Assembly (NCBI GenBank): GCA_041483195.1
Contig: JBGPFC010000008.1
Span: forward strand, 64,467-128,466
Direction of reading: 5' to 3'
Source: Candidatus Eiseniibacteriota bacterium
Lineage (GTDB): Bacteria; Eisenbacteria; RBG-16-71-46
Length of the DNA: 64,000 bases
This document shows, piece by piece, positions 2,206-53,406 of this stretch. A program made the translations under genes and the position numbers. Position 1 is the first letter of the stretch. Each line of letters begins with the position of its first letter. The notes under the pieces were generated by a model. It did no database searches and was not told where the DNA came from. It was given only the letters and a program-made list of their open reading frames with translations.

Positions 2206-3417
2206 CTACGGGCGCGACGGCGGAGCGGGCGGGGTCTTGAGTTGCTGGAGCTCCCGGTGGAGGCGCTGGATCTGCCGCTCGATCTCGGCGATGCGGCTCG
2301 GAGTGGGCTTCGAGTCGGCGGGAGCCACCGCCTCCGCCGCCCACTGCGGCATGGAATGCGGGGACTCGCCGAGCACGGCGCGGCCGACGTGCTGGATTTC
2401 GTCCCGCACCCAGACGAGATCGACGGTCGTGCCGGGCGGCGTGGATGCGACCCAGCGCGCGAGCTGGCCCGGGTACTCGACGCGCTCCCGGTCGAATCCC
2501 ACGATGAGGTCGCCGCGCCGGAGCGCGAGCCGGGCGGCAGGCCCCGCGGGTTCGACGGTCTCGACGAGCGCGCCGATCGGCACGCTCAGGCCCGCCTCGG
2601 TCTCGCTCTGGACGCTCGCGCCACTGGTGCTCACGCCCAGGTATCCGTGGTGCACGCGTCCGTCGCGCCTGAGGCTCTCGTACACCGGACGCACGTTCTC
2701 GACGGGCAGCACGAAGCTCATGCCCGCGGGGCGTCGCTCGCCATCGGGCGCGGCGCCGGCGCCGGGCACGCCGAGCTCGCCCTGGATGATGCCGACCAGC
2801 TCGCCCCGCGTGTTGAGCGCGGCGCCCCCGCTATTGCCCGGATAGACGGTGTTGGTGAGCTGCAGCAGCGCCATCCGCGGCTCGGGATAGCGATACGCGA
2901 CGTACCCGACGGACTGCGTGGGCTGCGCGCGGTACGAGGTCCCGAGCGCGATCGCCCAGTCACCCACCTGGGGCGGGCGCTCCTCCGCGAACCGAATCGG
3001 CGGAAGGCGGAGCTGGGGCACGCGGAGCAGCGCGAGATTGAACACCGGATCGACCCCGACGATGTCGGCGTCCACCTGAAGCCCGTTCACGCTGCGCACC
3101 AGGACCCGATCCGCGCCCAGCACCACGCTCGCGGTGGTGAGGATCAGGTTCTCGTCGACGGCGACGCCCGATCCGACGCGGGTGTGCAACCGTTGCTCGG
3201 CACCGTGGGTGCGCGAGGCGGCCACCGCGACCGCCCGTTGCGCGAAGACGGAGACCACCGAGGCGCGTGCGGCGAGGGTGATCTGATCGACGTCGGTCTG
3301 AAGCGCGGAAAGAGCGCCCTGCGCGAATCCGGGCGCGGCATACACCAGCCCGATCCCGAGGCACAGAGACGCCAGCGTGCGGCGCACCGGCGTCACCCAG
3401 CGGAACCGGCGTCGCAT
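2206..3417 (-). CDS. HtrA/DegS-like trypsin-fold + PDZ exported protein, apparently lacking catalytic His and Asp
   Basis: Signal peptide, GSGV, PGNSGG, PDZ domain (GYLGVS...GPAARLALRRGDLIV) and a C-terminal coiled coil. Reads TTASVV in place of TNxHVV. Confidence 0.88.
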   Translation of the reverse strand: MRRRFRWVTPVRRTLASLCLGIGLVYAAPGFAQGALSALQTDVDQITLAARASVVSVFAQRAVAVAASRTHGAEQRLHTRVGSGVAVDENLILTTASVVLGADRVLVRSVNGLQVDADIVGVDPVFNLALLRVPQLRLPPIRFAEERPPQVGDWAIALGTSYRAQPTQSVGYVAYRYPEPRMALLQLTNTVYPGNSGGAALNTRGELVGIIQGELGVPGAGAAPDGERRPAGMSFVLPVENVRPVYESLRRDGRVHHGYLGVSTSGASVQSETEAGLSVPIGALVETVEPAGPAARLALRRGDLIVGFDRERVEYPGQLARWVASTPPGTTVDLVWVRDEIQHVGRAVLGESPHSMPQWAAEAVAPADSKPTPSRIAEIERQIQRLHRELQQLKTPPAPPSRP

Positions 3418-3428
3418 GCGATGGCTCC

Positions 3429-4052
3429 TCAGAACGAGATCACGGCCTTCTCGCCCTGCACGCCATTCGGCGATCGCGACACCGTCGCACGGCCGCGATG
3501 AAGCGTCACGGGGTCGAGGATGAATTCGACGTCCTCGCTGTGATCGAAGAGGCTGTCGGAGATTGCGGCGCCCGACGCGTTCGCCAACAGCTGGCGGCCG
3601 GCCGCGGGCGCGCTCTGATCAAGCCGCGCGGAACCACGCGCGGCGACCGGGCTCACGATCTCGGGCTCGCGCAGCGCCCGCACGGAATTCCCGGTGGGGA
3701 GGGTGCGGTGGCCACGCGGCAACGCGCCGAGCCATGGGAGGACGAGCGACACCACGAGGGCCGCGAGCGCGGCGGCCGCCGTGATCGAGACCCAGTGCGG
3801 GCTCGCGGCCGGGAAGCGATCGGGCGCCGGAGCCACGCGCCGCGTGCGCGCCAGCACCCGGTCGAGCAGATCGGGGGCGGCTTCGAGGCGGGGCAGTGCG
3901 CCCGCGATCTCGACCGCCCGCGAGAATTCCTCGTACTCCTGCCGGCACGGGACGCATGCGCCGAGGTGCGCTTCCAGCCACTCGCGCTCGGCCTGCGTGG
4001 TCTCGTCGTCCCAGTAGGATCCAAACAGCCGCCGGGCCTGCCCGCATTTCAT
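3429..4052 (-). CDS. Zinc-binding (zf-HC2/ZAS) transmembrane anti-sigma factor
   Basis: N-terminal MKC...HLGACVPC (HxxxCxxC) and one TM helix. The start overlaps the sigma factor stop. Confidence 0.9.
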   Translation of the reverse strand: MKCGQARRLFGSYWDDETTQAEREWLEAHLGACVPCRQEYEEFSRAVEIAGALPRLEAAPDLLDRVLARTRRVAPAPDRFPAASPHWVSITAAAALAALVVSLVLPWLGALPRGHRTLPTGNSVRALREPEIVSPVAARGSARLDQSAPAAGRQLLANASGAAISDSLFDHSEDVEFILDPVTLHRGRATVSRSPNGVQGEKAVISF

Positions 4053-4684
4053 GAGGAACCTTCCCGTCGAAGCAGCGGTTGAAGTTTTCGCTTCAGCATG
4101 CTCCGCGCACGGTTGATGCGCGAGCGCACCGTGCCGCCCGGAATGCTGAGCACCTGTGCAATCTCCTCGTACGGCAACCCCTCGATATCGCGCAGCACCA
4201 GCGCCAGCCGGTATTTCTCCGGCACCGTCGCGATCGCGAGCCCCATCGCCTCCTGCAGCTGCTCGCGCTCCATCCGGCTCTCGCGGCCCTCGGTCGGATC
4301 CGCCAGCTGAATCGCGCTGTCCTTGAGCGCCTCCTGGAGTGCGTCCAGGCTGAACCAGTTGCGTCTTCGTACTCGCCGGCGAATCTCGTTCTTCGCGAGG
4401 TTCGCCGCGATCGTGAAGAGCCACGTCGAGAACTTGGAGCCGCGCCGGTAGTTTCTCCGGTGGACGAACACACGCACGAACACCTCCTGCGTGATGTCGT
4501 CTCCGCATTCGCGATCGTTCAGCACCCGGCCCACCAGGTTGATGACGCGACCTTGAAAGCGGCGGACCAACTCCGAGAACGCGCGCTCGTCATCCTCCGC
4601 GACGCGTCCCATGAGATCCTCGTCGGAGAGGCTCAGGATGGTCGGTGCGGCGGTATCACGATCGGGCGCCACGGGCTCAGTCAC
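4049..4684 (-). CDS. ECF RNA polymerase sigma factor (RpoE/SigW-like)
   Basis: DDITQEVFVRVF, FSTWLFTIAAN and YEEIAQVLSIPGGTVRSRINRAR motifs. Confidence 0.95.
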   Translation of the reverse strand: MTEPVAPDRDTAAPTILSLSDEDLMGRVAEDDERAFSELVRRFQGRVINLVGRVLNDRECGDDITQEVFVRVFVHRRNYRRGSKFSTWLFTIAANLAKNEIRRRVRRRNWFSLDALQEALKDSAIQLADPTEGRESRMEREQLQEAMGLAIATVPEKYRLALVLRDIEGLPYEEIAQVLSIPGGTVRSRINRARSMLKRKLQPLLRREGSS

Positions 4685-4725: not shown

Positions 4726-6396
4726 TTAGGGAAGGCCATCGAGCTTCGATCTCACCCGGAGATTGCCGTGATCCGCGGCCAGGCTCCGGCGGTACTGATC
4801 GCGGGCCAACTCGATGAGGCGCATGTCTTTGTAGACATCTCCCAGGTGCTCGTACACGACCGGGTCTCCCCCGCTCAGTCGGATCGCGCGCTCCAGCTCG
4901 CGCCGCGCGTCCTCGAGACGACCGAGCCGATAGTAGACCCATCCCATCGAGTCCACGTATGCCCCGTTGTCCGGCTCCCGCTCCACGGCCCGCCGGATGA
5001 GCGCCTCGGCCTCGGGAAGATCGCGATCGTGATCGGCGAGCAGGTAGCCGAGAAAATTGAGCGCAGAGGGACTGTCGGGCCTGGCTGCGAGCACATCGCG
5101 CGCCGCCCGCTCCGCACCCGCGAGGTCACCGAGTTGCTCGCGACAGTACGAGAGATCGAGCCCGATCTCGACTTCGGCGGGAAAACGGCGCAAAGTTTCG
5201 CTCCAGATCTGGGACGCCTCGGGGAAGTGCTTCTGCGTCTGCTCGATCCGCCCGAGCAGCAGCCGTGGCCCGAGCGAGTCGGGGGCCATCTCGATCGCGC
5301 GTCGCGCCGCCGCCAGTGCCGGCTCATTCTCTGCCGCCACCGCATGGGCCCGCGCCAGGAGCATCGGCCCCCGGTAGTCGTTCGGATGGCGTCGCGACCA
5401 GCCGTCGGCGAGCTGGACCGACTCGCGATTCCGCCGGTTCCGGGCCAGCACGTCGAGACGCCGGTCCAGATTCTCGGGATCGTCCGGCCCCAGCCGCGCG
5501 ATGCGGTCGAGCAGCTGAAATCCCTCGGTCGATCGACCGAGCCTGAGCGCGAGATCGGCCTCGACGGCCAGTGCGTCAGCATCCTCGGGTCGCGCGCGCG
5601 TCACCCGCTGGGACTCCCGGTAGGCGTCCGCGAAGCGCTTCTCGTCGATCAGGAGCGCCACGAGCCGCTGGCGCGTCGCATCATCGCCATCGTGGATCTT
5701 CAGGTGGCGCTGATACAGATCGATCGCCTCGCGCGGATGGCCGAGGCCCTCTTCGATCCAGCCCTGCAGGAAGAGAACCCCGGGACGGAGCGGATTGCCT
5801 GCGGCCGCCTGGGTGAGCGCCGACTTCGCGGCCGCGAAACGCCCCAGGCGCGCCTCGGCCGCCGCGAGTTGGAACCAGGACTCGCCGTCCTCCTCGTCGA
5901 GCGCGACGATGCGACGGTAGGCCCTGGCCACCACGTCGAATCGATCCAGTTCTTCGCCAATCCGGCCGAGCGTCTTGAGATATTCGACGTGATCGGAGTC
6001 GGCGGCGACCGCGGCTTCCAGCGCGTCCAGCGCCTCAGCCGAACGGCCCAGATTGAAGAGCGCGGAGCCTTCGAGCCACAGCGCGCGCGGGTCTCGCGCA
6101 TCGATCGTCAGCGCTCGCTGTGCGAACTCGAGCGAACCCGACGCGTCACCCAGCCGCGCGGCCGTCTCGCTCAATCGTCGCGCAGTCGCGATGGATCGCG
6201 GGTCGAGAGAGAGGGCACGATAGTACTCGCCCAGCGCATCGGTCCCGGCGCCACGCTCTTCGAGCAGCCGGCCCTGCGCGTATCGGCGCAGGGCCTCCTC
6301 GCTCGGAAACTGTGACGCCGCGGCGGCGGTGTCGCCGCCGGGCGCGGGGCTGGTGGTCGCGGCGCTGACCAACAGGCTGAGTGCGATATGCCACAT
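4726..6396 (-). CDS. Exported tetratricopeptide-repeat protein
   Basis: Signal peptide and many TPRs; ALNFLGYLLAD...YVDSMGWVYY...EHLGDVY C-terminus typical of envelope TPR proteins. Confidence 0.9.
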   Translation of the reverse strand: MWHIALSLLVSAATTSPAPGGDTAAAASQFPSEEALRRYAQGRLLEERGAGTDALGEYYRALSLDPRSIATARRLSETAARLGDASGSLEFAQRALTIDARDPRALWLEGSALFNLGRSAEALDALEAAVAADSDHVEYLKTLGRIGEELDRFDVVARAYRRIVALDEEDGESWFQLAAAEARLGRFAAAKSALTQAAAGNPLRPGVLFLQGWIEEGLGHPREAIDLYQRHLKIHDGDDATRQRLVALLIDEKRFADAYRESQRVTRARPEDADALAVEADLALRLGRSTEGFQLLDRIARLGPDDPENLDRRLDVLARNRRNRESVQLADGWSRRHPNDYRGPMLLARAHAVAAENEPALAAARRAIEMAPDSLGPRLLLGRIEQTQKHFPEASQIWSETLRRFPAEVEIGLDLSYCREQLGDLAGAERAARDVLAARPDSPSALNFLGYLLADHDRDLPEAEALIRRAVEREPDNGAYVDSMGWVYYRLGRLEDARRELERAIRLSGGDPVVYEHLGDVYKDMRLIELARDQYRRSLAADHGNLRVRSKLDGLP

Positions 6397-6552
6397 CGCA
6401 TCGAGGGTAACACGCGCCGCGTTCGCGCCGGAAGCGGCACGGCTGGTTCGCGCGCCCGAGACTCTGATGAGTGGAAAAGTTCTGCCATGACGAGAATTCG
6501 CGAAGGTGGTATGAATGGACGGGACGTCCCCTCGGGTCGCAGGCAGGTGGCC

Positions 6553-7959
6553 ATGCAAACCTCAGAGCCCCAGGCGCGCATTCTCGTCGTCGACGACGAG
6601 CCGCAGACCGCGGTCGCCATCGAGCGGATGGTCGCGCACTTCGGTCACGATGTGGTGGGAGCCGACTCCGCGGAAGCCGCGATCCGTCACTTCACCGGGT
6701 CGTCGATCGACGTCGTGCTCACCGATCTCAACCTGGGACGAACCGACGGACTCGAATTGCTCCGCCGCATGCAGGAGCACGATCCCACCGTCCCGGTCGT
6801 GCTCATTACGGGGTACGCCACCGCGAATTCGGCCATGGAGGCGATTCAGGCCGGCGCCTACGACTACCTTCCCAAGCCCCCCACGCTCGAAGCGATTGGC
6901 GCGCTGCTCCGGCGTGCGATCGAGAAGAAACGAAACACCGAGGCGAATCGGCGGAGCGAGCTGGTTCCCGAAGTGCCCGGTCTGCTCGACGAGATCGTCT
7001 CGGGCAAGTCATCCCGCATGCTCGACGTCTACAAGGTGGTCGCGCGGGTTGCCATGGCCCGAAGCAGCGTGCTCATCCTCGGGGAAAGCGGAACCGGGAA
7101 GGAGCTGGTCGCGCGCGCCCTCCATCGCAGGAGCCCGCGCGCCGACCGCGACTTCGTCCCGGTCAACGTCTCGGCGATCCCGGAAGGGCTGCTGGAGAGT
7201 GAACTGTTCGGACACGTGCGGGGAGCCTTCACCGGCGCATCGTCCTCGCGCCGCGGCCTCTTCGATCAGGCCCACCTCGGCACGCTGTTCCTGGACGAGA
7301 TCGGCGATCTCACCATCACGTTGCAGGCCAAGCTGCTGCGCGTGCTCCAGGAGCATCGCTTCAAGCCGGTCGGCAGCAACGAGGAAACGGAAGTGGACGT
7401 GCGCGTGGTCGGCGCGACCCATCGCAATCTCGAGGAGATGGTGCGGCTGGGGCGGTTTCGCGAGGATCTCTATTACCGGCTCAACGTGGTGTCGGTCTCG
7501 CTCCCGCCGCTGCGCGAACGGCGCGAGGACATTCCGATCCTGATCGAGCATTTCCTGCGCAAGTACTCGCAACAGACCGGGCGGCCCGCACCCGGAGTGT
7601 CGCCCGAGGCGATGCGCCGCGCGATGGACTTCCCATGGCCCGGCAACGTCCGCCAACTCGAAAACGTGATCGAGCGCGCGGTGGTGCTCTCCACACAGGG
7701 AGTGATCGGACCCGAGGCCATGCCGCCGCGCCTGCCCTGGAGCGGCGGAGCGATCGCGGTGGATCGGGCCGAATTTCCGAGCCTCGACGAGATCATCCAG
7801 CGCTACGTCGAGGAGGTGCTCGCTCACACCGGGGGCAATCGTACGCGCGCGGCCATGATTCTCGGCATCTCCCGGCGCACGCTCCACAGGATGGCAGAGC
7901 GCGAGCGTCAGGGGGCCACGCGTGGCAGCGACGACTTGACCCACATCGGGCAAGACTGA
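6553..7959 (+). CDS. Sigma54-dependent response regulator (NtrC/AtoC family: REC, AAA+, Fis HTH)
   Basis: ILVVDDE, GESGTGKE, intact GAFTGA, LFLDEIG, WPGNVRQLEN and GNRTRAAMILGISRRTL motifs. Confidence 0.96.
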   Translation: MQTSEPQARILVVDDEPQTAVAIERMVAHFGHDVVGADSAEAAIRHFTGSSIDVVLTDLNLGRTDGLELLRRMQEHDPTVPVVLITGYATANSAMEAIQAGAYDYLPKPPTLEAIGALLRRAIEKKRNTEANRRSELVPEVPGLLDEIVSGKSSRMLDVYKVVARVAMARSSVLILGESGTGKELVARALHRRSPRADRDFVPVNVSAIPEGLLESELFGHVRGAFTGASSSRRGLFDQAHLGTLFLDEIGDLTITLQAKLLRVLQEHRFKPVGSNEETEVDVRVVGATHRNLEEMVRLGRFREDLYYRLNVVSVSLPPLRERREDIPILIEHFLRKYSQQTGRPAPGVSPEAMRRAMDFPWPGNVRQLENVIERAVVLSTQGVIGPEAMPPRLPWSGGAIAVDRAEFPSLDEIIQRYVEEVLAHTGGNRTRAAMILGISRRTLHRMAERERQGATRGSDDLTHIGQD

Positions 7960-8140
7960 CGCTCAAGTTCCAACACTCTCCTGCTACCCAAGTTGTAGCG
8001 GCACCCGCGCCGGGCTGGGACATTTCGGCGCTGCGACGCCAGACGACACGGCCCGCCCGGGAATAGATTGGCCGAGCGCGAGTCCCGCAACCCTTTACCA
8101 TACGAAACGATGAGAACTACGGCCTGCGATTCTCCATCGC

Positions 8141-8156
8141 TGGCATGTGAGTTGCG
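8141..8156 (+). promoter_or_regulatory. Sigma54 -24/-12 promoter
   Basis: TGGCATGTGAGTTGC: GG-N10-GC, close to the TGGCACG-N4-TTGC consensus, about 180 bp downstream of a sigma54 activator gene. Confidence 0.75.
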
Positions 8157-8166
8157 GCTATCTTCT

Positions 8167-8387
8167 CTATGGGGTGGACAGTCTTCCCCGCATGGACGCG
8201 GGTACGTTTGGCAACCGAGCAGACGCCGCATGAGAAGTTGGGGCCACAGACCGAGGCGCGGCGGCGCGCAGGTTGCGATTGTCTGTCGTCACCGTGTGAG
8301 GGGCACGGAGAATCCGAGGGGCCTGTCCCGATCGCGTGTGGCGGCAGTTTGGGAGCGGGGGGCGAGTGCCCCCCGCTTCATTTTCTT
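8167..8387 (+). ncRNA. Putative sigma54-dependent small RNA
   Basis: Bounded by the sigma54 promoter and a plus-strand intrinsic terminator. Contains several complementary segments and no convincing ORF. Confidence 0.6.
8352..8387 (+). terminator. Rho-independent terminator
   Basis: GGAGCGGGGGGC-GAGT-GCCCCCCGCTTC followed by ATTTTCTT. The U-tract is on the plus strand only. Confidence 0.85.
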
Positions 8388-8410
8388 GTGACCCTCGGCC
8401 GCTCCGCGAG

Positions 8411-10129
8411 CTAGTCGTTCCGGGGCGCGCGTCGGGCCCGGCCGGGTCGGCGACCGTATGCCCCGGGCGCCGGTTTCGCGATCGCGGGTGGCGCTTCGCG
8501 CATGGCGGGCGCGGCCGGCTCATGCGCCGGCGAGTCCTCGTGCTCGTCCACGTCCTCGGGCGCTTCCGATCCGGTCGATTCTTCCGGCGTGGCCTCCGGC
8601 GCGTCCTCGAACCTGACGGGTTCCGACAGGTCGGGCACGGCCTCGGGATGAAACTCCTCCTCGACTGGGGACGGCTCGATCGCATACGGATCGACGTGAC
8701 GCTCCTCGATCGGGCCCTCCGGTCTGCCCACTTCTTCGAGCTCGTCCTCCTCGTAAGCCGGCGGAACAGGTTCGATCTCGCGCGGCTCGACTTCCGGCGG
8801 CTCGATCGCGCGCCGACGCGGAGCCACCGGCGCCCGTAGCGGCGCCCGCAGCGGCGCACGTTCGACCACCGCCTCGCGCTCGACCACCGGCGCACGCTCG
8901 ACTACCGGCGCGCGCTCGACCACCGGCTCCGCGCTCTCCACCATCGGAGCTTCGTCGCCACGCGGCCTCCGACCGCGACCGCCGCGTCGTCCGCGGCGCC
9001 GGCGCCGGCGCATCTCATCGCTCTCATCTTCGGTCACGACCTCGGCCTGCGATTCGACGGCAGGCGCGGGCGTGGTCACGTGCCCTTCCCGCGATTCACG
9101 GACGCGCGGCTCACGCTCGCGAGGTTCGCGCTCGCCTCCCTCTCGGGCCGGCCGCTCGCCCCGCTCGCTGCCCACGCGATCGAGCGCGTCGCGTGCCGCG
9201 GCCTGCTCCGCCTCCTTCTTGTTGTTGCCCTTGCCCTCGCCGAGCGCCCGCCGCCCGACCAGCACCTCGACCATGAAGTGCTTCGAATGATCGGGGCCCA
9301 TCTCACTGCGGATCCGATAGACCGGATGCGTGCGGAACGTGCTCTGCACGTACTCCTGCAGGTGGCTCTTGTAGTTCGTGTGCCGCTTGTCCGCGACGAT
9401 CTCAGGCGCGTCGCGCAGCAACCACCGCTGGATGAAGGCCCGAGCTGCCTCGAACCCCTGATCCAGGTAGATCGCGCCGATCACGGATTCGAATGCGTCG
9501 GCCAGGATCGAGAGACGCTGCCTCCCGCCCGATTCGATCTCGGAGTGGCTCATCAGCACGAAACGCCCGAGGCCCATCGCCAGCGCGCGTCGCGAGAGGA
9601 TGGCCTTCGACACCAGCAGCGACTTGGTCTTCGTGAGCTGGCCTTCGTGCTCCGTGGGATGTTGCCGGTACAACGACTCGCTGGTCACCAGTCCCAGCAC
9701 CGAGTCGCCCAGGAACTCCAGACGCTCGTTGGATTCGCGGGGACCCTGCCCCGTCACGCTCAGGTAGGAGCGGTGGGTGAGCGCGAGCTTGAGCAGCTCG
9801 AGCCGATTGAAGGTGATGCCGTAGTGGCGCCCGAACTCGGCGAGGATGCGGGCTTCCTGCTCGCTGGTCCCGATTCTCGCGGCGCGCTGCTCAGGGGCGC
9901 GGCGCGGCGGCGCGAACAGCGACCGCAGCCAGCTCCATAGCGAGAATCCCCGGCGGGGCGGCGGCGGTTGCGGTCCGCGCGGCCGGCGCCTGCCCCCGCG
10001 GCGGCGGCGTCCTACGTCGCGGCCTTCATGGCCAGAGTCACGTTGTGTCCCCCGAACCCGAACGAGTTCGAGAGAGCGGCCCTCACGCGCAGCGCGCGGG
10101 CCTGGTTGGGAACGAAATCGAGGTCGCAT
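8411..10129 (-). CDS. rnc: Ribonuclease III with long C-terminal low-complexity extension (start uncertain)
   Basis: ALTHRS, NERLEFLGDSVL, ADAFESVIGAIYLD and dsRBD (NYKSHLQE...KKEAEQAAA); canonical position after fabF. Confidence 0.93.
   Translation of the reverse strand: MRPRFRSQPGPRAAREGRSLELVRVRGTQRDSGHEGRDVGRRRRGGRRRPRGPQPPPPRRGFSLWSWLRSLFAPPRRAPEQRAARIGTSEQEARILAEFGRHYGITFNRLELLKLALTHRSYLSVTGQGPRESNERLEFLGDSVLGLVTSESLYRQHPTEHEGQLTKTKSLLVSKAILSRRALAMGLGRFVLMSHSEIESGGRQRLSILADAFESVIGAIYLDQGFEAARAFIQRWLLRDAPEIVADKRHTNYKSHLQEYVQSTFRTHPVYRIRSEMGPDHSKHFMVEVLVGRRALGEGKGNNKKEAEQAAARDALDRVGSERGERPAREGGEREPREREPRVRESREGHVTTPAPAVESQAEVVTEDESDEMRRRRRRGRRGGRGRRPRGDEAPMVESAEPVVERAPVVERAPVVEREAVVERAPLRAPLRAPVAPRRRAIEPPEVEPREIEPVPPAYEEDELEEVGRPEGPIEERHVDPYAIEPSPVEEEFHPEAVPDLSEPVRFEDAPEATPEESTGSEAPEDVDEHEDSPAHEPAAPAMREAPPAIAKPAPGAYGRRPGRARRAPRND
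8850..8945 (-). repeat. Imperfect 18-bp tandem repeat encoding (P/A)VVER(A/E) in the RNase III tail
   Basis: tcgaccaccg-type units recur every 18 bp; translation EPVVERAPVVERAPVVEREAVVERAP. Confidence 0.8.
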
Positions 10130-16745: not shown

Positions 16746-17828
16746 TCAGGGCGTGCCGGGGCGTCTCCGGGGACGGCGCTTGCGGGCCGCGGCCGCTTTG
16801 GTGCGCGCGCCGCGCGCGGTGGCCCCCACGCGCCCGCGCCGCGAAGCCGACCGCGGACCCGACGCGCGTGGCCGGGTGGCGGACGCTCGCCGCGCTGGCG
16901 CGCCGGGCTTCGCGGCGACGCGCGCGCGATGACGCCGTCGCTCCAGCGCTTCCGCGATCAGCGATGGGATTTCGGATGGAATGCGGGCGACCGGGACGCC
17001 GGCGGCCGCGAAGGCCGCCATCTTCTCCGCCGCCGTGCCGGTCCCGCCCGAGATGATGGCGCCCGCGTGACCCATGCGCTTGCCGGCCGGGGCCGTCTGC
17101 CCGGCGATGAAGGCGACCACCGGCTTCTTCACGTGGCGGCGGATGAAGAGCGCGGCCTCTTCCTCATCGGTTCCGCCGATCTCCCCCATCAGTACGATCG
17201 CCTCGGTGTGCGGGTCGGCTTCGAACAACGCGAGCGAGTCGATGAAGTTCGTGCCGATCACCGGATCGCCGCCGATGCCGAGGCAGGTGCTCTGTCCGAG
17301 CCCGGCGCGGGTGAGCTGGTGGACGACCTCGTACGTGAGCGTTCCGCTGCGCGACACCACGCCCACCGGCCCGGGCTTCGCGATGTGCCCGGGCATGATG
17401 CCGACCTTCGACAACCCGGGCGAGAGCAGCCCCGGACAGTTCGGTCCCACCAGCCGCGGCCGCCCGTTGCCGTTGCGCTCGCGCAGCCGTGCGATGTGGT
17501 GATAGGCCGCCGTCGCGTCGCGCACCGGAACCCCCTCGGTGATGCACACGATCAGCGCGAGTCCGGCGTCGGCGGCCTCGAAGATGGCGTCGGCCGCGAA
17601 CGGGGCGGGCACGTAGATGACCGACGCGTTCGCGCGCGTCGCGGCGACGGCCTCGGCGACGCTGTCGTACACCGGGACGCCGTGCACGCGCTCGCCCCCC
17701 TTGCCGGGCGTGACCCCGGCCACGACGCGCGTGCCGTATGCGAGCATCTGCTCCGTGTGGAACGCGCCGTCGCGGCCGGTGATGCCCTGCACCACGAGTC
17801 GCGTGCTCTTGTCGACGAGGATGCTCAC
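16746..17828 (-). CDS. sucD: Succinyl-CoA synthetase alpha subunit with basic C-terminal tail
   Basis: [21 protein letters not shown] and RMGHAGAII motifs; GTG start overlaps the sucC stop. Confidence 0.96.
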
Positions 17829-18985
17829 GCGCCCACCTCCTGCGCCTTCGCGATCACGGCGCGCACACCCTCGTCCATGCTGGTCGTGGCCGAGAGTCCG
17901 TGATCCGCGAGGATCTTGCGCGCCAGCTCCTCGTTGGTGCCGGTGAGGCGGATGACCAGCGGCACCTCGAGCGGAGATTCGGCGAGCGACTGGACGATGC
18001 CGTTGGCGACGTCGTCGCAACGCGTGATGCCGCCGAAGATGTTGAAGAGGATCGCCCGCACCCGCGAGCCCCGCTCGCCGTCGCGCGCGTCGGTGGTGAT
18101 GATCCGGAGCGCGGCCGTCACCTTGTCCGGGTTCGACGAGCCGCCGATGTCGAGGAAATTGGCGGGCTCGCCCCCGTAGTGCTTGACCAGGTCCATGGTC
18201 GCCATGGCCAGACCCGCCCCGTTCACGACGCAGCCGATGTCGCCGTCGAGCTTCACGTAGGAGAGTCCCTTCTCGCGGGCGAGCCGCGCGCCCGCCGTCT
18301 CCTCGTCCGGATCGCGCCAGGTGGCCCAGTCGCGATGCCGGAAGTCGGCGTTGTCGTCGAGGATCACCTTGGCGTCGAGGGCGACGACCCTGCCCTCCGG
18401 CGTGATCGCGAGTGGATTGATCTCGGCGAGCTGGCAGTCGGCCTCCTGGTACACGCGCCACAGCTTGAGCAGCACGTCGGCCGCCTGCTGCACCAGCTTG
18501 CCGTCCTTCAGCACCGGCTGAAACAGGGCGCGCGCCTCGTAGGGCCTGAGGCCCTCGAGCGGAATCGGGCGCCTGAGGATCTTCTCGGGAGCGGTGCGCG
18601 CGACCTCCTCGATCTCGACTCCGCCCTCCGCCGACAGCATGATGAGCGGCAGCTTGCGGCTGCGATCGAGCACGATCGAGAGGTAGAGCTCGCGCGCGAT
18701 CTCGGCGGCCTGCGCCACCAGCACCTTCCGCACCCTGAGCCCCTTGATGGTGAGCGCGAGGATGTCGCGAGCCTTCTCGAACGCCTCATCGGGCGAGTGC
18801 GCGAGCTTCACGCCGCCCGCCTTGCCGCGCCCTCCCACCAGAACCTGGGCCTTGATCACGACCGTCCCGCCGATCGAGGCCGCCACGTCGCGCGCCTCCT
18901 CGGGAGTGCTCGCGACCTGCCCGGGCAGCACCGGCAGGCCGAAGCGGGCGAACAACTCCTTTGCCTGGTACTCGTGAAGGTTCAT
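17825..18985 (-). CDS. sucC: Succinyl-CoA synthetase beta subunit
   Basis: [29 protein letters not shown] and [10 protein letters not shown] motifs. Confidence 0.97.
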
Positions 18986-29916: not shown

Positions 29917-30133
29917 TCGCTTTGGGTGTTCGCGGGCGCCGGAACCGGGCCGTTGGGCGACCGCCATGCGGTCCCCTGGGCGCATGAAATGATCTCTTGC
30001 GAATGACGGCCCCGCACGCCTAACGTCATCGACGTGAGCAGGGCGGGACCGGGCCGACCCGGTTCCGCCCTGCTCTCTTTTCTCCGCAACGACCGGGGCA
30101 ATCTCGACACGAAGGCCCCTGGGAGAAGATGCG

Positions 30134-44920: not shown

Positions 44921-45340
44921 TCAGATGTCGAGCACGAGGCGGCAGCGGCACGCGCGCGGCTCGAGGTCGAGCTCGAGCGCGTGGTGCGAGACGGCCTTCA
45001 GCTCGCGTAGAAAGGTCTGGCGCGCAGGGTCGCGCGGCACACCCTCGAGCCGCCCGGAGAGGGTCGTCGGGGTCAGGCGTTCCACCACGGCGCGGGTCCA
45101 CACCGCCCGGCGCAGATCGGCCTCGAGCAGCGCGGTGTTGAGCCAGTGCACCATGAGATCGCGGGGGTCGTCGCCCTCGAGCTCGATCTCCACTTCCAGC
45201 TCGGGCTCGCCGGCTGGAGCCTCGATCGTCTGTGCGAGCAGCGCCTCGGCCGCGAGCGCGTACAATCGCTCCGGCGTCGCGGCCCATACCTCGAGCCCGA
45301 GATCGGCGGTATGGTCGAACGTTTGAAAGCCCTCGCTCAT
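44921..45340 (-). CDS. Archease
   Basis: DHTADLGLEVW, WLN.LL and ELKAVSHH...LVLDI motifs. Confidence 0.9.
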   Translation of the reverse strand: MSEGFQTFDHTADLGLEVWAATPERLYALAAEALLAQTIEAPAGEPELEVEIELEGDDPRDLMVHWLNTALLEADLRRAVWTRAVVERLTPTTLSGRLEGVPRDPARQTFLRELKAVSHHALELDLEPRACRCRLVLDI

Positions 45341-45368
45341 GCCGGAGAGTGTACGCGAGACCGCGGCG

Positions 45369-46088
45369 TTACAGGAGTTGCCGCGAGCGCAGGCTCACCA
45401 CGCCGCGCTCGGCGACGATCACGTGATCGAGAACTCCGATCCCGACCAGCTCGCCGACCTGCACCAGGCGCCGGGTGATCGAGAGGTCCTCCTCGCTGGG
45501 CTCGGGATCGCCGCTCGGATGATTGTGCACCAGCACCACGCTCGCCGCCGAGTGGAGAATCGCAGGCAGGAACACCTCGCGCGGATGAACGATCGAGGCG
45601 TTCAGGCTGCCGATCGAAACGGTCTCGCGGCACTGCAGCTCGTGACGCGCATTGAGCAGCAGCACGACGAAGTGCTCCTTGCGCGCGCGGGGAAGGTCGC
45701 GCACCTGGGCCAGCACGTCGTCCGGGCCGCGGATCGCGGCGCTGGTCGCCGCGCGCTCGCACGCACGCCGCCCGAGCTCGAATGCCGCGGACAGGGCCGC
45801 GGCGCGGGCGGGGCCGATTCCCTGCACCCGCAACCAGCGTGCGGACGACCATCGCGCCAGCTCGGAGGGCGGCTGGCGCGCGAGCCGCCGCCCGATGCGA
45901 AGCGCGCTGCGCCCCGCGCTGCCGGTGCCGACCACCAGCGCGATCAGCTCGGCGTCGGCGAGCGCCCCGGCGCCCCGGGCGCGCAACTTCTCGCGCGGCC
46001 TGAGCCCCCCCGGCCCGTGCGCTGGCGCCGGGGCCATCACGCCGCCGGCCGCGGCGAACGGCGCCGATGGGAACTCTTCGCTTTTCAT
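45369..46088 (-). CDS. radC: RadC/JAB-domain protein
   Basis: RPREKL...AL.DAELIAL, GIGPA, VHPREVF and HNHPSGDPEPS.ED. Start uncertain (46088 or 46038). Confidence 0.93.
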   Translation of the reverse strand: MKSEEFPSAPFAAAGGVMAPAPAHGPGGLRPREKLRARGAGALADAELIALVVGTGSAGRSALRIGRRLARQPPSELARWSSARWLRVQGIGPARAAALSAAFELGRRACERAATSAAIRGPDDVLAQVRDLPRARKEHFVVLLLNARHELQCRETVSIGSLNASIVHPREVFLPAILHSAASVVLVHNHPSGDPEPSEEDLSITRRLVQVGELVGIGVLDHVIVAERGVVSLRSRQLL

Positions 46089-46178
46089 CGTGGGAGGATC
46101 TCGGTCATAATCTCGCGTTCGGTCCGGTCGCGCGGACTCTCGCCCCTCAGGGGCATTCGATCCATCGGAGGCGGCTGC

Positions 46179-47096
46179 ATGCGACGTGCCATACTCGGGT
46201 CTGCGGTGGCGTTGTGCGCGGCGGGGTTGCTCGCCACCGACGCCGGAGCACCCCCTCAGGTCGTGAACCTCGTGAACGGTATCGGGCTGATCGATTACAC
46301 GCGCAAGCCCGACTTCAAGGTCGGCGACTGGGTGCGCTACCACATCACGGCCCGCAGCGTGCTCGGCGCGCGCGACGACTACATGGTCACGGTGGTGATC
46401 GCCGGGGAAGAAACGTTCTGGGGTGAGGACGGGTTCTGGGTGGAGTCCTGGACCGAACCGATCGACCGGGCTCCGCAGGCGATCGCGACGTTCATGTCTT
46501 TCGCGGTCTTCGGTGACACCCTCCCGCTCCCGCACATGACGCTCTACCAGCGCAAGAGCATCAGCGAAGTGACGGAGGACGGACGGCCGGTGGAGACGCT
46601 CGCGCGCCGCCCTCCTGGGAGCCTGAAGGCGCGCTCACCGATCGACGATCAAGTCCATTGGAGCATCGACACGCTGGGCGTCGACACGGTGAGCGTCCCC
46701 ACCGGCCTGTATCAGTGCGCCAAGGTGCTGACGCGTCAGGGCAAGGGCGCGAAGACCGACGTGGGTGACAGCACGCTCTACACCGAAGTGCACGACGAGC
46801 GCGTGACGTACATCTCGCGCCAGGTGCCGATCACGAGCCTGGTCCGCGAAGACATCGACTACTGGTTCCAGCGTCGCACGTGGCAGATCGGCCGCTCGCA
46901 GGAGGCCGCTCCCATGCACATGATGGAGCACTCGACCGGGACGGCGCGCCTCGTGGGGTTCGGAAGCGGCATGGTCCCGCGCCTGGTACCGCCCGAGAAA
47001 CAAAAAATGGTGCGAGCCCAGCAGGCGGGAGCGCCGCCGAAACCCGCACGCGGTCCGGTTCCCGCGAAGCGCGCGCCGCCGCGCGGCTCGGGATGA
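46179..47096 (+). CDS. Exported hypothetical protein
   Basis: GGAGG RBS and signal peptide; FKVGDWVRY and VSVPTG.Y.C.KV. Confidence 0.75.
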   Translation: MRRAILGSAVALCAAGLLATDAGAPPQVVNLVNGIGLIDYTRKPDFKVGDWVRYHITARSVLGARDDYMVTVVIAGEETFWGEDGFWVESWTEPIDRAPQAIATFMSFAVFGDTLPLPHMTLYQRKSISEVTEDGRPVETLARRPPGSLKARSPIDDQVHWSIDTLGVDTVSVPTGLYQCAKVLTRQGKGAKTDVGDSTLYTEVHDERVTYISRQVPITSLVREDIDYWFQRRTWQIGRSQEAAPMHMMEHSTGTARLVGFGSGMVPRLVPPEKQKMVRAQQAGAPPKPARGPVPAKRAPPRGSG

Positions 47097-51993: not shown

Positions 51994-53406
51994 TCAAGGG
52001 TCGCGCGCCGCTCCGAACGCCCGTGCGAGGGATCCGACCGCTTCGTCCATCTCGTCTTCGGCCAGCGTTCGCGGGTCCAGCCGCCAGCGCCCCCCGCGCG
52101 TGGTGCCGATCACGGGGGGTTGAGCGGCGCGCGCGAGTCGCTCGAGATCCTGCGCGGTTCGGCCCTCCTGCTTCAGCTCGACCACCCAGCCCGGCAGCTT
52201 CTGCATGGGCAGCGCGCCGCCGCCCGCCTCGCCGTCGCCACGCACCACGCGCGTCGCGAGCCCTGGGATCGCGGCCGCCAGCGCGTCGGCCAGACGCCTC
52301 GCGCGCGGCTCGAGCTGGTCGGGAGTGGCGCGCAGCATCGCGAGCGCCGGGATCTCGCGCGCGGCGCGCGCGGGATCGGCGTAGAGCGGAAGCGTCGCCT
52401 CGAGCGCCGCGAGCGCGAGTTTGTCGAGCCGGAGCGCCCGCGCGAGCGGGTCCTTCCGCAGTCGCTCGATCCAGCGCCGGCGTCCGAGCACCAGCCCCGC
52501 CTGCGCCCCGCCCAGCAGCTTGTCCCCGGAAAACGTGACGAGATCGGCCCCCGCCGCGAGGCTCTCCCCGACCGTTGGCTCGTGCGCGATCCCGAAGGCG
52601 GCGAGATCCACGAGCGCGCCGCTGCCGAGATCCTCGATCAGCGGAATGCGATGATCCCGGGCGAGGCGGGCGAGCTCGTCGAGCGCCGGTCGCGCGGTGA
52701 AACCCGCGATCCGGAAATTGCTGGGGTGGACGCGCAGCACCGCTCCGATGTCGTCGTGGCGTTCGATCGCCCTGGCGTAATCGCGCAGGTGCGTGCGATT
52801 CGTGGTGCCCACCTCGAGCAGGCTGGCCCCGCTCTTCTCCAGGATTTCGGGAATGCGAAACGAGCCGCCGATCTCGACCAGCTCGCCGCGCGAGACCAGG
52901 ACCTTTCGCCCCGCCGCGAGCGCCGAAAGCGCGAGCAACACCGCCGCGGCGCCGTTGTTCACGGCCAGGGCGGCCTCCGCGCCGGTGAGGCGCGTGAGCC
53001 AGCGCTCGACGCCGAGGCCGCGGACGCCGCGCGCACCGCTCTCCAGGTCGTACTCGAGGCTCGAGTATCCCCGCGCCACGGCATCCACCGCCGCGCGCGC
53101 CGCGCTCGCGTATGGCGCACGGCCGAGATTGGTGTGCAGCACGACCCCGGTGGCATTGAGCACGCGGCGCATCCGGGGCCGATGCTGCGTGTCCGCGCGG
53201 GCCGCTGCGCTCGCGGCCAGCGCCGCGGGATCGGCCGCGTCGGCCGCGCCGGTCCGAAGCCGCTCGCGCGCGTCGGCCAGCTCCGCGCGCACCGCCTCGA
53301 CCACCAGCGCCCGGGGCAACCGCCGCAGCGTTTCGGCCAGCGCGGGGTGGCGGAGCAACGTTTCGACGGCGGGCAACGTGCGCAACCGGAGGCGGGCGGT
53401 GGCCAT
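51994..53406 (-). CDS. selA: L-seryl-tRNA(Sec) selenium transferase
   Basis: VLNATGVVLHTNLGRAP, VSRGELVEIGGSFRIP, EVGTTNRTH and FSGDKLLGG motifs. Confidence 0.97.
   Translation of the reverse strand: MATARLRLRTLPAVETLLRHPALAETLRRLPRALVVEAVRAELADARERLRTGAADAADPAALAASAAARADTQHRPRMRRVLNATGVVLHTNLGRAPYASAARAAVDAVARGYSSLEYDLESGARGVRGLGVERWLTRLTGAEAALAVNNGAAAVLLALSALAAGRKVLVSRGELVEIGGSFRIPEILEKSGASLLEVGTTNRTHLRDYARAIERHDDIGAVLRVHPSNFRIAGFTARPALDELARLARDHRIPLIEDLGSGALVDLAAFGIAHEPTVGESLAAGADLVTFSGDKLLGGAQAGLVLGRRRWIERLRKDPLARALRLDKLALAALEATLPLYADPARAAREIPALAMLRATPDQLEPRARRLADALAAAIPGLATRVVRGDGEAGGGALPMQKLPGWVVELKQEGRTAQDLERLARAAQPPVIGTTRGGRWRLDPRTLAEDEMDEAVGSLARAFGAARDP

What the first reader, a model, noticed from the sequence alone, without database searches (positions are those of the whole stretch)
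7960..8390. Unannotated sigma54-dependent small RNA directly downstream of an NtrC-type activator
Seen: a sigma54 promoter TGGCATGTGAGTTGC (8141-8155) and a plus-strand terminator (8352-8387) enclose ~220 nt with no credible ORF. The region contains nested complementary segments: GGACAG 8176/CTGTCC 8323, GCAACC 8211/GGTTGC 8271, CGCCGC 8224/GCGGCG ~8260 and CCGTG 8292/CACGG 8304. A hairpin CCGC-AUGGAC-GCGG (8188-8201) presents an ANGGA motif in its loop. Known: cbrB-crcZ in Pseudomonas and the Pxr locus in Myxococcus have the same activator-then-sigma54-sRNA layout, and CsrA/RsmA binds ANGGA in loops. Inference: a new sRNA controlled by the adjacent regulator, possibly a protein sponge. It converges on the 3' end of rnc.
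Basis: partly seen in the sequence, partly recalled or inferred. Interest (0 to 1): 0.75.

Follow-up and report, generated by a model that had tools for sequence, protein, structure and literature searches.

The report
Candidate sigma-54 small RNA, unverified
Between a sigma-54 activator gene and the RNase III gene of an uncultured bacterium lies a promoter-to-terminator unit of about 220 bases that looks like a small regulatory RNA of a well-known kind, but its conservation and expression could not be tested.

Summary
The sequence features are real. A −24/−12 motif, TGGCATGTGAGTTGC (8141-8155, +), is the only exact TGGCAY-N5-TTGC match in the window (shuffles expect 0.16). A 12-bp hairpin with a T-run (8352-8389, +) follows. 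The ~220 nt between them hold no credible ORF. The unit sits 182 nt behind a complete NtrC-type activator gene (receiver Asp, Walker A/B, GAFTGA, Fis-type HTH) and converges on rnc.

The best reading is an activator-dependent sigma-54 small RNA gene, laid out like NrsZ, Pxr and CrcZ (confidence 0.55).

- Only 1 of its 5 helices is favoured in the folding ensemble.
- The ANGGA hairpin has pair probability 0.03.
- GGA motifs are not enriched (4 seen, 5.0 expected).
- Without the terminator the RNA folds no better than shuffles (z −0.54).
- No Rfam family matches.

Conservation is untested. My single genome scan returned only distant homologues of the activator (36-47% identity), and no DNA of close relatives could be fetched. 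If real, this is a new member of a known kind, of modest interest.

The parts
6553..7959 (+). NtrC-type response-regulator / sigma-54 activator gene (468 aa; the longest ORF starts at 6388)
   Evidence: Pfam finds Response_reg, Sigma54_activat, AAA_lid_14 and HTH_8. The 468-aa form is the one in the protein database (P0001). The translation shows the receiver Asp (VVLTDLN), Walker A GESGTGKE, GAFTGA and Walker B DEIG. It reaches no NCBIfam equivalog cut-off; the best is AtoC at 451 bits against a cut-off of 714.
7983..7999 (.). Dyad GCTAC-N7-GTAGC, centred about -176 from the predicted start. It could be an activator site or a small hairpin behind the activator gene.
   Evidence: Found by my own dyad scan. 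It is speculative: there is no comparative support.
8007..8031 (.). Dyad GCGCCG-N13-CGGCGC, centred about -148; a candidate upstream activator site.
   Evidence: Speculative. A 21-nt near-match of 8002-8022 at 17293-17313 lies inside a long minus-strand ORF, 16746-18461, that I read as sucD, so I take it as chance.
8141..8155 (+). -24/-12 sigma-54 promoter-like motif TGGCATGTGAGTTGC
   Evidence: It is the only exact TGGCAY-N5-TTGC match in the window; shuffles give 0.16. It sits in a local GC dip of 52% at 8100-8149, against 70% for the window. The consensus TGGCAC-N5-TTGCW is as quoted in PMC4253122.
8167..8387 (+). Predicted non-coding transcript of about 220 nt. The start is inferred as 12 nt after the -12 C. 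The end is inferred in the T-run.
   Evidence: Inferred from promoter and terminator geometry. There is no Rfam family, no coding signal, and no protein homologues in two plus-strand frames.
8167..8195 (+). 5' stem-loop that begins at the predicted +1, with loop CAGUCU (8179-8184)
   Evidence: It is present in both the MFE and the centroid structure. Folded alone it gives -12.9 kcal/mol and z = -1.97, with 6 of 200 shuffles as good. The loop's unpaired probability is 0.95. I chose the sub-window after seeing the fold.
8283..8347 (+). Long internal hairpin
   Evidence: -35.3 kcal/mol, z = -3.32, 0 of 200 shuffles as good. I chose the sub-window after seeing the whole-RNA fold, so the z-score is optimistic.
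8352..8389 (+). Intrinsic terminator: 12-bp G+C-rich stem, GAGU loop, T-run ATTTTCTTGT. The T-run is on the plus strand only.
   Evidence: z = -5.3. The stem also lies 32 nt behind the rnc stop codon on the minus strand, where no T-run follows it.
8411..10129 (-). Convergent RNase III gene (rnc) with a disordered acidic/proline-rich C-terminal tail of about 250 aa. It is the last gene of a minus-strand fab cluster.
   Evidence: Pfam Ribonucleas_3_3 and dsrm. NCBIfam RNaseIII at 247 bits against a cut-off of 166. Translation. fabF, acpP, fabG, fabH and plsX are identified.

Best explanation
The gap between the activator gene and rnc holds an independent gene for a non-coding RNA of about 220 nt, transcribed by sigma-54 RNA polymerase.

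Proposed mechanism (every step is inferred; none was shown here):
1. The adjacent orphan response regulator is phosphorylated on its receiver Asp by an unlinked kinase.
2. It assembles on sites 100-180 bp upstream. The candidate sites are the dyads at 7983-7999 and 8007-8031.
3. It uses ATP and its GAFTGA loop to open the -24/-12 promoter at 8141-8155.
4. Transcription starts near 8167 and stops at the intrinsic terminator at 8352-8389.
5. The RNA folds into a 5' hairpin, a weak central domain, a long hairpin (8283-8347) and the terminator.
6. It most likely acts in trans by base pairing with mRNAs, as a regulatory output of that two-component pathway.
For: - Promoter: the only exact TGGCAY-N5-TTGC match in 128 kb of both strands (0.16 expected). 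It is in the 451-nt gap directly behind the only sigma-54 activator gene I found in the window, and points away from that gene.
- Activator: it has every catalytic and sigma-54-contact motif.
- Terminator: a canonical terminator with its T-run on the same strand lies 185 nt after the predicted start. It is one of two strong ones in 60 kb.
- No downstream target gene: no Pfam-supported or coding-like plus-strand gene follows before about 22 kb, so the promoter cannot serve an mRNA there.
- Not coding: the gap's ORFs look non-coding by composition and codon usage. They have no Pfam hits (5 of 5 ORFs empty at E up to 1) and no real homologues. The two plus-strand ORFs inside the transcript end at or beyond the terminator.
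- Unusually long gap: four other convergent pairs of Pfam-supported genes in the window have gaps of -12, 36, 80 and 84 nt, against 451 nt here. I computed these from the coordinates.
- Likely conserved neighbourhood: activator and FabF homologues share identical longest-contig lengths and at least one listed source in 6 pairs, two of them on contigs of 7,509 and 5,524 nt.
Against: - No DNA from close relatives could be examined, so conservation of the promoter, terminator and structure is unknown.
- The body of the RNA folds no better than shuffles (z = -0.54).
- A terminator is expected between convergent genes anyway, so it is not independent evidence for a separate RNA gene.
- The motif departs from the consensus (T for C in TGGCAC; G after TTGC). 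With one mismatch allowed, the window gives 2 matches against 1.3 expected.
- rpoN was not among the ORFs scanned in the window, and the rest of the genome is out of reach.
- Among 18 distant homologous loci, only 1 had a sigma-54-like motif within 700 nt behind the regulator gene (6 of the 18 loci held less than 700 nt there). In that locus the motif precedes an 89-aa ORF with a signal-peptide-like start, not a non-coding RNA.
- There is no expression data.
Confidence: 0.55

Rival explanations
1. There is no separate RNA gene. The -24/-12 match is a chance motif in a lower-GC spacer. The hairpin at 8352-8389 is simply the shared terminator of the convergent activator and rnc transcripts, so 7960-8390 is a long 3' UTR or spacer.
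For: - A terminator between convergent genes is expected.
- No other plus-strand terminator with a stem longer than 5 pairs lies between the activator's stop codon at 7959 and 8352, so activator mRNA probably runs to 8387 in any case.
- The hairpin sits 32 nt behind the rnc stop codon.
- The motif is only mildly unusual on a whole-window basis: 14 of 100 shuffles have at least one exact match.
- The RNA body is no more structured than shuffles.
Against: - A chance motif would have to fall in this 451-nt gap, on this strand, behind the window's only activator gene. That is roughly 0.16 x 451/128,000, or about 6e-4, before allowing for the gap's lower GC (my arithmetic).
- The gap is 5 or more times longer than the four other convergent gaps between Pfam-supported genes.
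- The T-run is on the plus strand only.
Confidence: 0.27
2. The promoter is real but the RNA acts in cis. It converges on rnc and shares the terminator hairpin with it. It would then control the 3' end of the rnc/fab transcript by transcriptional interference or by forming an RNase III-sensitive duplex, rather than acting on distant targets.
For: - The unit ends 22 nt before the rnc stop codon.
- On the minus strand the hairpin has no T-run and no other minus-strand terminator was found in 7500-9000. rnc transcripts may therefore read into the RNA gene and become fully complementary to it.
- The activator-fabF neighbourhood seems conserved.
Against: Purely positional. There is no evidence that rnc transcripts extend past the hairpin. 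The strong plus-strand terminator argues that the RNA itself does not enter rnc.
Confidence: 0.08
3. The transcript is an mRNA for a small protein. The candidates are the leaderless 81-aa Cys-rich ORF 8169-8414 and the 53-aa ORF 8230-8391.
For: - An ATG lies 2 nt after the predicted start.
- In the distant locus L018 a sigma-54-like motif behind the regulator gene precedes an 89-aa ORF with a signal-peptide-like start.
Against: - GC by codon position and codon usage look non-coding.
- No homologue of the 81-aa ORF among 5.8 billion proteins.
- No real homologue of the second frame among 1.84 billion representatives: the 2 hits are long tandem-repeat proteins.
- No Pfam hit.
- The 81-aa ORF's stop codon lies 23 nt beyond the terminator's T-run, and the 53-aa ORF's stop codon lies at the T-run's end. 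Terminated transcripts would lack a stop codon.
Confidence: 0.04
4. The RNA is a CsrA/RsmA-type protein sponge.
For: One AUGGA could sit in a hexaloop (8192-8197) if the CCGC/GCGG stem forms.
Against: - That stem has pair probability 0.03.
- GGA occurs 4 times against 5.0 expected (77% of shuffles reach 4). ANGGA occurs twice (16% of shuffles reach 2).
- No CsrB/RsmY/RsmZ-type family appears even at E up to 10.
- No csrA was seen among the ORFs scanned in the window, though my scan of ORFs of 50-135 aa covered only 5 of the 7 coding-like small ORFs.
Confidence: 0.03

Closest known systems
[quoted passage not shown]
   Same: The order is the same: activator gene, then a sigma-54 promoter, then a small RNA on the same strand, ending against a convergent gene. 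NrsZ was also found by scanning intergenic regions for TGGCAC-N5-TTGCW.
   Different: There is no sequence or structure similarity: no such Rfam match at E up to 10. NrsZ is processed into short repeated forms, and no internal repeat is seen here. The activator here is not an NtrC equivalog (430 bits against a cut-off of 559) and has no adjacent kinase. Nothing here has been shown experimentally.
Pxr of Myxococcus xanthus (downstream of the sigma-54 regulator nla19; PMC5568312, passages read)
   Same: The sRNA gene lies behind an NtrC-like regulator gene. The spacer holding a sigma-54 promoter is 262 nt there, and 207 nt here from the activator's stop codon to the predicted start. Both have a multi-stem-loop RNA and a high-GC genome.
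   Different: Pxr is 108 nt; this RNA is about 220 nt. No homology was detected. The lineage is different: the closest named FabF hits are Candidatus Eisenbacteria.
CrcZ/CrcY of Pseudomonas (CbrB- and sigma-54-dependent protein-sequestering RNAs; PMC6296734, abstract and passages read)
   Same: A sigma-54 activator drives a non-coding RNA and depends on upstream activator sites.
   Different: By the passages read, CrcZ and CrcY work by sequestering the Crc protein. That they do so through repeated A-rich motifs is my recall; I did not scan for such motifs. The only sponge-type repeat I tested, GGA, is not enriched. That crcZ lies directly downstream of cbrB is recalled, not seen in the passages I read.
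Qrr1/LuxO of Vibrio and GlmY/GlrR of enterobacteria (PMC10162802 and PMC4152352; search listing and abstract starts only)
   Same: Sigma-54-dependent sRNAs activated by response-regulator activators.
   Different: The gene order differs (recalled: qrr1 is divergent from luxO; glmY lies upstream of glrK). There is no Rfam match here.

Membership tests
Activator-adjacent sigma-54-dependent sRNA (functional kind: NrsZ, Pxr, CrcZ) | -24/-12 promoter (GG-N10-GC, TGGCAC-N5-TTGCW) upstream of the RNA | tested here: met
   TGGCATGTGAGTTGC at 8141-8155 is the only exact TGGCAY-N5-TTGC match in the window. This is sequence level only.
Activator-adjacent sigma-54-dependent sRNA (functional kind: NrsZ, Pxr, CrcZ) | Neighbouring gene encodes a competent sigma-54 activator (AAA+ domain with GAFTGA, plus a DNA-binding HTH) | tested here: met
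   Pfam domains; motifs read in the translation.
Activator-adjacent sigma-54-dependent sRNA (functional kind: NrsZ, Pxr, CrcZ) | Non-coding, ending at its own terminator | tested here: met
   Composition, codon usage, the absence of homologues and the positions of the stop codons; terminator.
Activator-adjacent sigma-54-dependent sRNA (functional kind: NrsZ, Pxr, CrcZ) | A transcript exists and depends on rpoN and on the activator | not testable with these tools
   No expression data. The lineage appears to be uncultured: its closest named relatives are metagenome-assembled genomes.
Activator-adjacent sigma-54-dependent sRNA (functional kind: NrsZ, Pxr, CrcZ) | Promoter and RNA conserved behind orthologous regulators | not tested
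Only indirect evidence of a shared neighbourhood exists.
Known Rfam sRNA families (including Pxr, CrcZ, NrsZ, Qrr, GlmY/Z and CsrB/RsmZ, if present in Rfam 15; their presence there is recalled) | Covariance-model score at or above the family's gathering threshold | tested here: not met
   No family reaches gathering in the whole window. The best match at E up to 10 is asX1, at 25.9 bits against 70, resting mainly on the terminator hairpin.
CsrA/RsmA-sequestering RNAs (CsrB/RsmZ type) | Many GGA/ANGGA motifs, preferentially in hairpin loops | tested here: not met
   4 GGA against 5.0 expected; the only loop candidate has pair probability 0.03.

The most novel reading that the evidence does not exclude
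The orphan activator and this RNA form a conserved module fixed at the 3' end of the rnc/fab operon throughout Candidatus Eisenbacteria. The RNA, by sharing the terminator hairpin with rnc or pairing with rnc read-through transcripts, would tie a two-component signal to RNase III or fatty-acid-synthesis expression. That would be a sigma-54-driven convergent RNA controlling the cell's double-strand RNase.
Probability: 0.07. Interest if true: 0.6.

Novelty: new member of a known kind. Interest (0 to 1): 0.3.

Why it matters
If real, this would be a first candidate regulatory RNA for an uncultured candidate phylum (probably Candidatus Eisenbacteria). A full-text search for 'Eisenbacteria' found 81 papers. 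None of the 15 listed has the word in its title, and none of those titles or abstract starts concerns small RNAs. I did not examine the other 66.

It would also assign a direct target to an orphan sigma-54 response regulator whose homologues of 59-75% identity fill the 119 non-self hits listed.

It would add no new principle. The activator-then-sigma-54-sRNA layout is established for NrsZ, Pxr and CrcZ.

Tried and rejected
- Genome scan for relatives. None is usable for covariation. Only 1 of the 18 had a sigma-54-like motif behind the regulator gene, and that one drives a small ORF.
- blastn of 7960-8410 against the rest of the window and the 18 loci. It gave only short chance matches. The best, 21 nt at 17293-17313, lies inside a long ORF that I read as sucD.
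- blastn of 8100-8400 against plasmids: no match.
- HMMER search of the 107-aa frame. The 2 hits are long tandem-repeat proteins with 10 and 6 matched stretches. I rejected them as repeat artefacts.
- duplexfold of the RNA against the activator's start region, the activator's 3' end and the rnc 3' end. None beat shuffles (fractions 0.32, 0.61 and 0.92). The 11-of-12 complementarity between 7947-7958 and 8179-8190 is within chance for a 461-nt region (my estimate).
- The 70%-identical direct repeat 8125-8151 / 8274-8300 and the inverted pair 8123-8135 / 8307-8319. I took both as chance.
- The Rfam asX1 match (E = 0.094). Rejected: 25.9 bits against a gathering score of 70, and it rests on the terminator.

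Full report
**What is there.** The window has 70% G+C.

The ORF 6388-7959 (+) encodes a response-regulator-type sigma-54 activator with Response_reg, Sigma54_activat, AAA_lid_14 and HTH_8 domains. The form held in the protein database is 468 aa and starts at 6553 (P0001). Its translation shows the receiver Asp context VVLTDLN, Walker A GESGTGKE, the sigma-54 contact loop GAFTGA and Walker B DEIG. It reaches no NCBIfam equivalog cut-off: AtoC scores 451 bits against 714, and NtrC 430 against 559. It is therefore a generic NtrC/AtoC-type activator.

The gene stands alone on the plus strand. Upstream lie a minus-strand TPR protein, an ECF sigma factor, an anti-sigma factor and an HtrA-like protease. 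Downstream, converging on it, lies RNase III (8411-10129, −). RNase III is the last gene of a minus-strand cluster holding fabF, acpP, fabG, fabH, plsX, rpmF and yceD. No histidine kinase gene is adjacent.

**Check of the observation.**
- Promoter. The −24/−12 motif TGGCATGTGAGTTGC (8141-8155, +) is the only exact match to TGGCAY-N5-TTGC on either strand of the window. Shuffles give a mean of 0.16, and 14 of 100 have at least one match. Allowing one mismatch to TGGCAY-N5-TTGCW gives 2 matches against 1.30 expected.
- Terminator. The hairpin at 8352-8379 has 12 pairs (10 G-C) and is followed by ATTTTCTTGT. Only one other stem of 12 or more pairs was found in 60 kb. Its z-score against shuffles is −5.3. 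The T-run is on the plus strand only. On the minus strand the same hairpin lies 32 nt behind the rnc stop codon and is followed by CCCAAACTG.

**Is it coding?** Evidence against a gene in the gap:
- ORF 8169-8414 (81 aa) has GC by codon position of 0.66/0.63/0.72. The three neighbouring genes have 0.66-0.77/0.47-0.53/0.81-0.84.
- A codon-usage log-odds score trained on 27 genes of the window gives −0.22 for this ORF. True-frame 81-codon windows average +0.47 (n = 137) and false frames −0.49 (n = 685). The other four ORFs of the gap score −0.28 to −0.69.
- None of the 5 ORFs tested has a Pfam hit at E up to 1.
- The 81-aa ORF has no homologue among 5.8 billion proteins of 44-142 aa.
- The 107-aa frame 8068-8388, which contains the 53-aa ORF 8230-8391, gave 2 hits among 1.84 billion representatives. 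Both are long tandem-repeat proteins matched in 10 and 6 stretches, which I judge to be artefacts.
- The 81-aa ORF's stop codon (8412-8414) lies beyond the terminator's T-run, and the 53-aa ORF's stop codon (8389-8391) at its end. Terminated transcripts would carry no stop codon.

**Is it a known RNA?** No Rfam family reaches its gathering score anywhere in the window. At E up to 10 over 7900-8500, six weak matches appear. The best is asX1 at 25.9 bits against a gathering score of 70 (E = 0.094), and its well-paired part is the terminator hairpin. None of the six is a Pxr, CrcZ, NrsZ, Qrr, GlmY/Z or CsrB/Rsm-type family.

**Structure.**
- The whole RNA (8167-8390) folds at −108.8 kcal/mol, z = −2.07, with 10 of 200 shuffles as good.
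- Without the terminator, z = −0.54 and 54 of 200 shuffles are as good.
CGCCGC/GCGGCG has 0.09, CCGUG/CACGG 0.12, GGACAG/CUGUCC 0.00, and the CCGC-AUGGAC-GCGG hairpin 0.03.
- The fold that does recur has four parts. First, a 5′ hairpin starting exactly at the predicted +1 (8167-8195; z = −1.97). Second, a weak central domain (8205-8282; z = −0.47). Third, a long hairpin (8283-8347; −35.3 kcal/mol; z = −3.32; 0 of 200 shuffles as good). Fourth, the terminator.
- I chose those sub-windows after seeing the whole-RNA fold, so their z-scores are optimistic.

**Sponge idea.** GGA occurs 4 times against 5.0 expected, and ANGGA twice against 0.72 expected, with 16% of shuffles reaching 2. The one loop-presented ANGGA depends on the helix with probability 0.03. 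I find no support for a CsrA-type sponge.

**Context that favours a separate RNA gene.**
- The promoter motif lies 182 nt behind the stop codon of the only sigma-54 activator I found in the window, and points away from it.
- No Pfam-supported or coding-like plus-strand gene follows before about 22 kb.
- The convergent gap is 451 nt. Four other convergent pairs of Pfam-supported genes have gaps of −12, 36, 80 and 84 nt (coordinates).
- The window's second-best motif, TGGCACGTCGCATGCA (46191-46176, −), lies about 65 nt upstream of the probable start of a minus-strand radC gene, which is followed by an archease gene. If that site is real too, simple motif matches are informative in this genome.

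**Relatives.**
- Only 1 of the 18 had a sigma-54-like motif within 700 nt behind the regulator gene, and 6 of the 18 loci had less than 700 nt left there. That one, L018, precedes an 89-aa ORF with a signal-peptide-like start.
- The protein database does hold closer homologues of the activator: the 119 non-self hits listed have 59-75% identity.
- The FabF search gave four named hits at 81-86% identity, all 'Candidatus Eisenbacteria bacterium' (P0144, P0163, P0187, P0202). That is the probable lineage. A type IX secretion sorting domain in the window is consistent with it.
- Comparing the two tables, six activator/FabF pairs share an identical longest-contig length and at least one listed source: 7,509, 5,524, 25,887, 36,400, 39,410 and 459,762 nt. 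For the two short contigs this places the two genes within a few kb of each other. The activator-rnc-fabF neighbourhood is therefore probably conserved down to 61-75% activator identity. This is an inference from table values, not from sequence, and it says nothing yet about the RNA.

**Interpretation.**
- Most likely (0.55): the gap holds an activator-dependent sigma-54 gene for a non-coding RNA of about 220 nt that acts in trans by base pairing. The sequence shows the promoter motif, the activator's competence, the terminator and the lack of coding signal. The start site, the activator sites (dyads at 7983-7999 and 8007-8031), dependence on this activator, and the mode of action are all inferred.
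- Main rival (0.27): a chance motif in a long 3′ UTR or spacer, with an ordinary shared terminator.
- Minor rivals: cis or antisense action on the rnc 3′ end (0.08), a small-protein mRNA (0.04), and a CsrA sponge (0.03).

**Comparison with known systems.**
- NrsZ. [quoted passage not shown]
- Pxr. Also the same layout: downstream of the sigma-54 regulator nla19, with a 262-nt spacer holding a sigma-54 promoter (PMC5568312, passages).
- CrcZ. Functionally similar: CbrB- and sigma-54-dependent (PMC6296734, abstract and passages).
- It works like these but belongs to none of their sequence families.

**Verdict.** This is a plausible, unverified new member of a known kind, and I score its interest at 0.3. 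Two things stayed unchecked. The first is conservation and covariation in close relatives, for which no DNA was available. The second is the presence of rpoN, hfq and csrA outside the window.

Noticed in passing
window 46176-46191 (-), with 45369-46113 (-) and 44921-45340 (-): A second sigma-54-like motif, TGGCACGTCGCATGCA, lies about 65 nt upstream of the probable ATG (~46113) of a minus-strand radC gene (RadC JAB and UPF0758_N domains). An archease gene follows directly. This may be a second sigma-54 promoter. The 585-aa plus-strand ORF 45339-47096 that overlaps it has no Pfam hit and is probably spurious.
   Followed up: partly
window 30036-30085 (+): This is the strongest terminator-like hairpin in the window: 18 pairs (14 G-C), then TCTTTTCTCC. 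It sits in a divergent intergenic region, about 55 nt upstream of the ATG at 30134 of a 750-aa ORF with no Pfam hit and a hydrophobic, signal-peptide-like start. It could be an attenuator or leader, or the end of another small RNA.
   Followed up: no
window 8411-10129 (-): RNase III is 572 aa as the longest ORF. The catalytic and dsRBD domains occupy residues 101-318. A C-terminal tail of about 250 aa, acidic and proline-rich with repeats (VVERAP repeats), follows them, and an Arg-rich N-terminal stretch may lie before the true start.
   Followed up: no
tables (no window coordinates): Six activator/FabF homologue pairs share identical longest-contig lengths and at least one listed source. This implies that the activator-rnc-fabF neighbourhood is conserved in relatives. 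The closest named FabF hits are Candidatus Eisenbacteria MAGs.
   Followed up: partly
window 51994-53406 (-): A selenocysteine synthase gene (selA) is present, but no tRNA or other Rfam family reaches its gathering score anywhere in the 64-kb window.
   Followed up: no
window 2206-4684 (-): An ECF sigma factor (4049-4684), a zf-HC2 anti-sigma factor (3429-4508, whose longest ORF overlaps the sigma gene) and an HtrA-like trypsin/PDZ protease (2206-3417) form an envelope-stress-type cluster two genes upstream of the activator.
   Followed up: no
L018 5273-5592 (+): In a Nitrospirae MAG, a sigma-54-like motif TGGCACGTCCCGTGCT lies 35 nt behind a 44%-identical activator gene. It precedes an 89-aa ORF with a signal-peptide-like N-terminus. 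The layout is activator-then-sigma-54-promoter again, but with a small protein as the product.
   Followed up: partly
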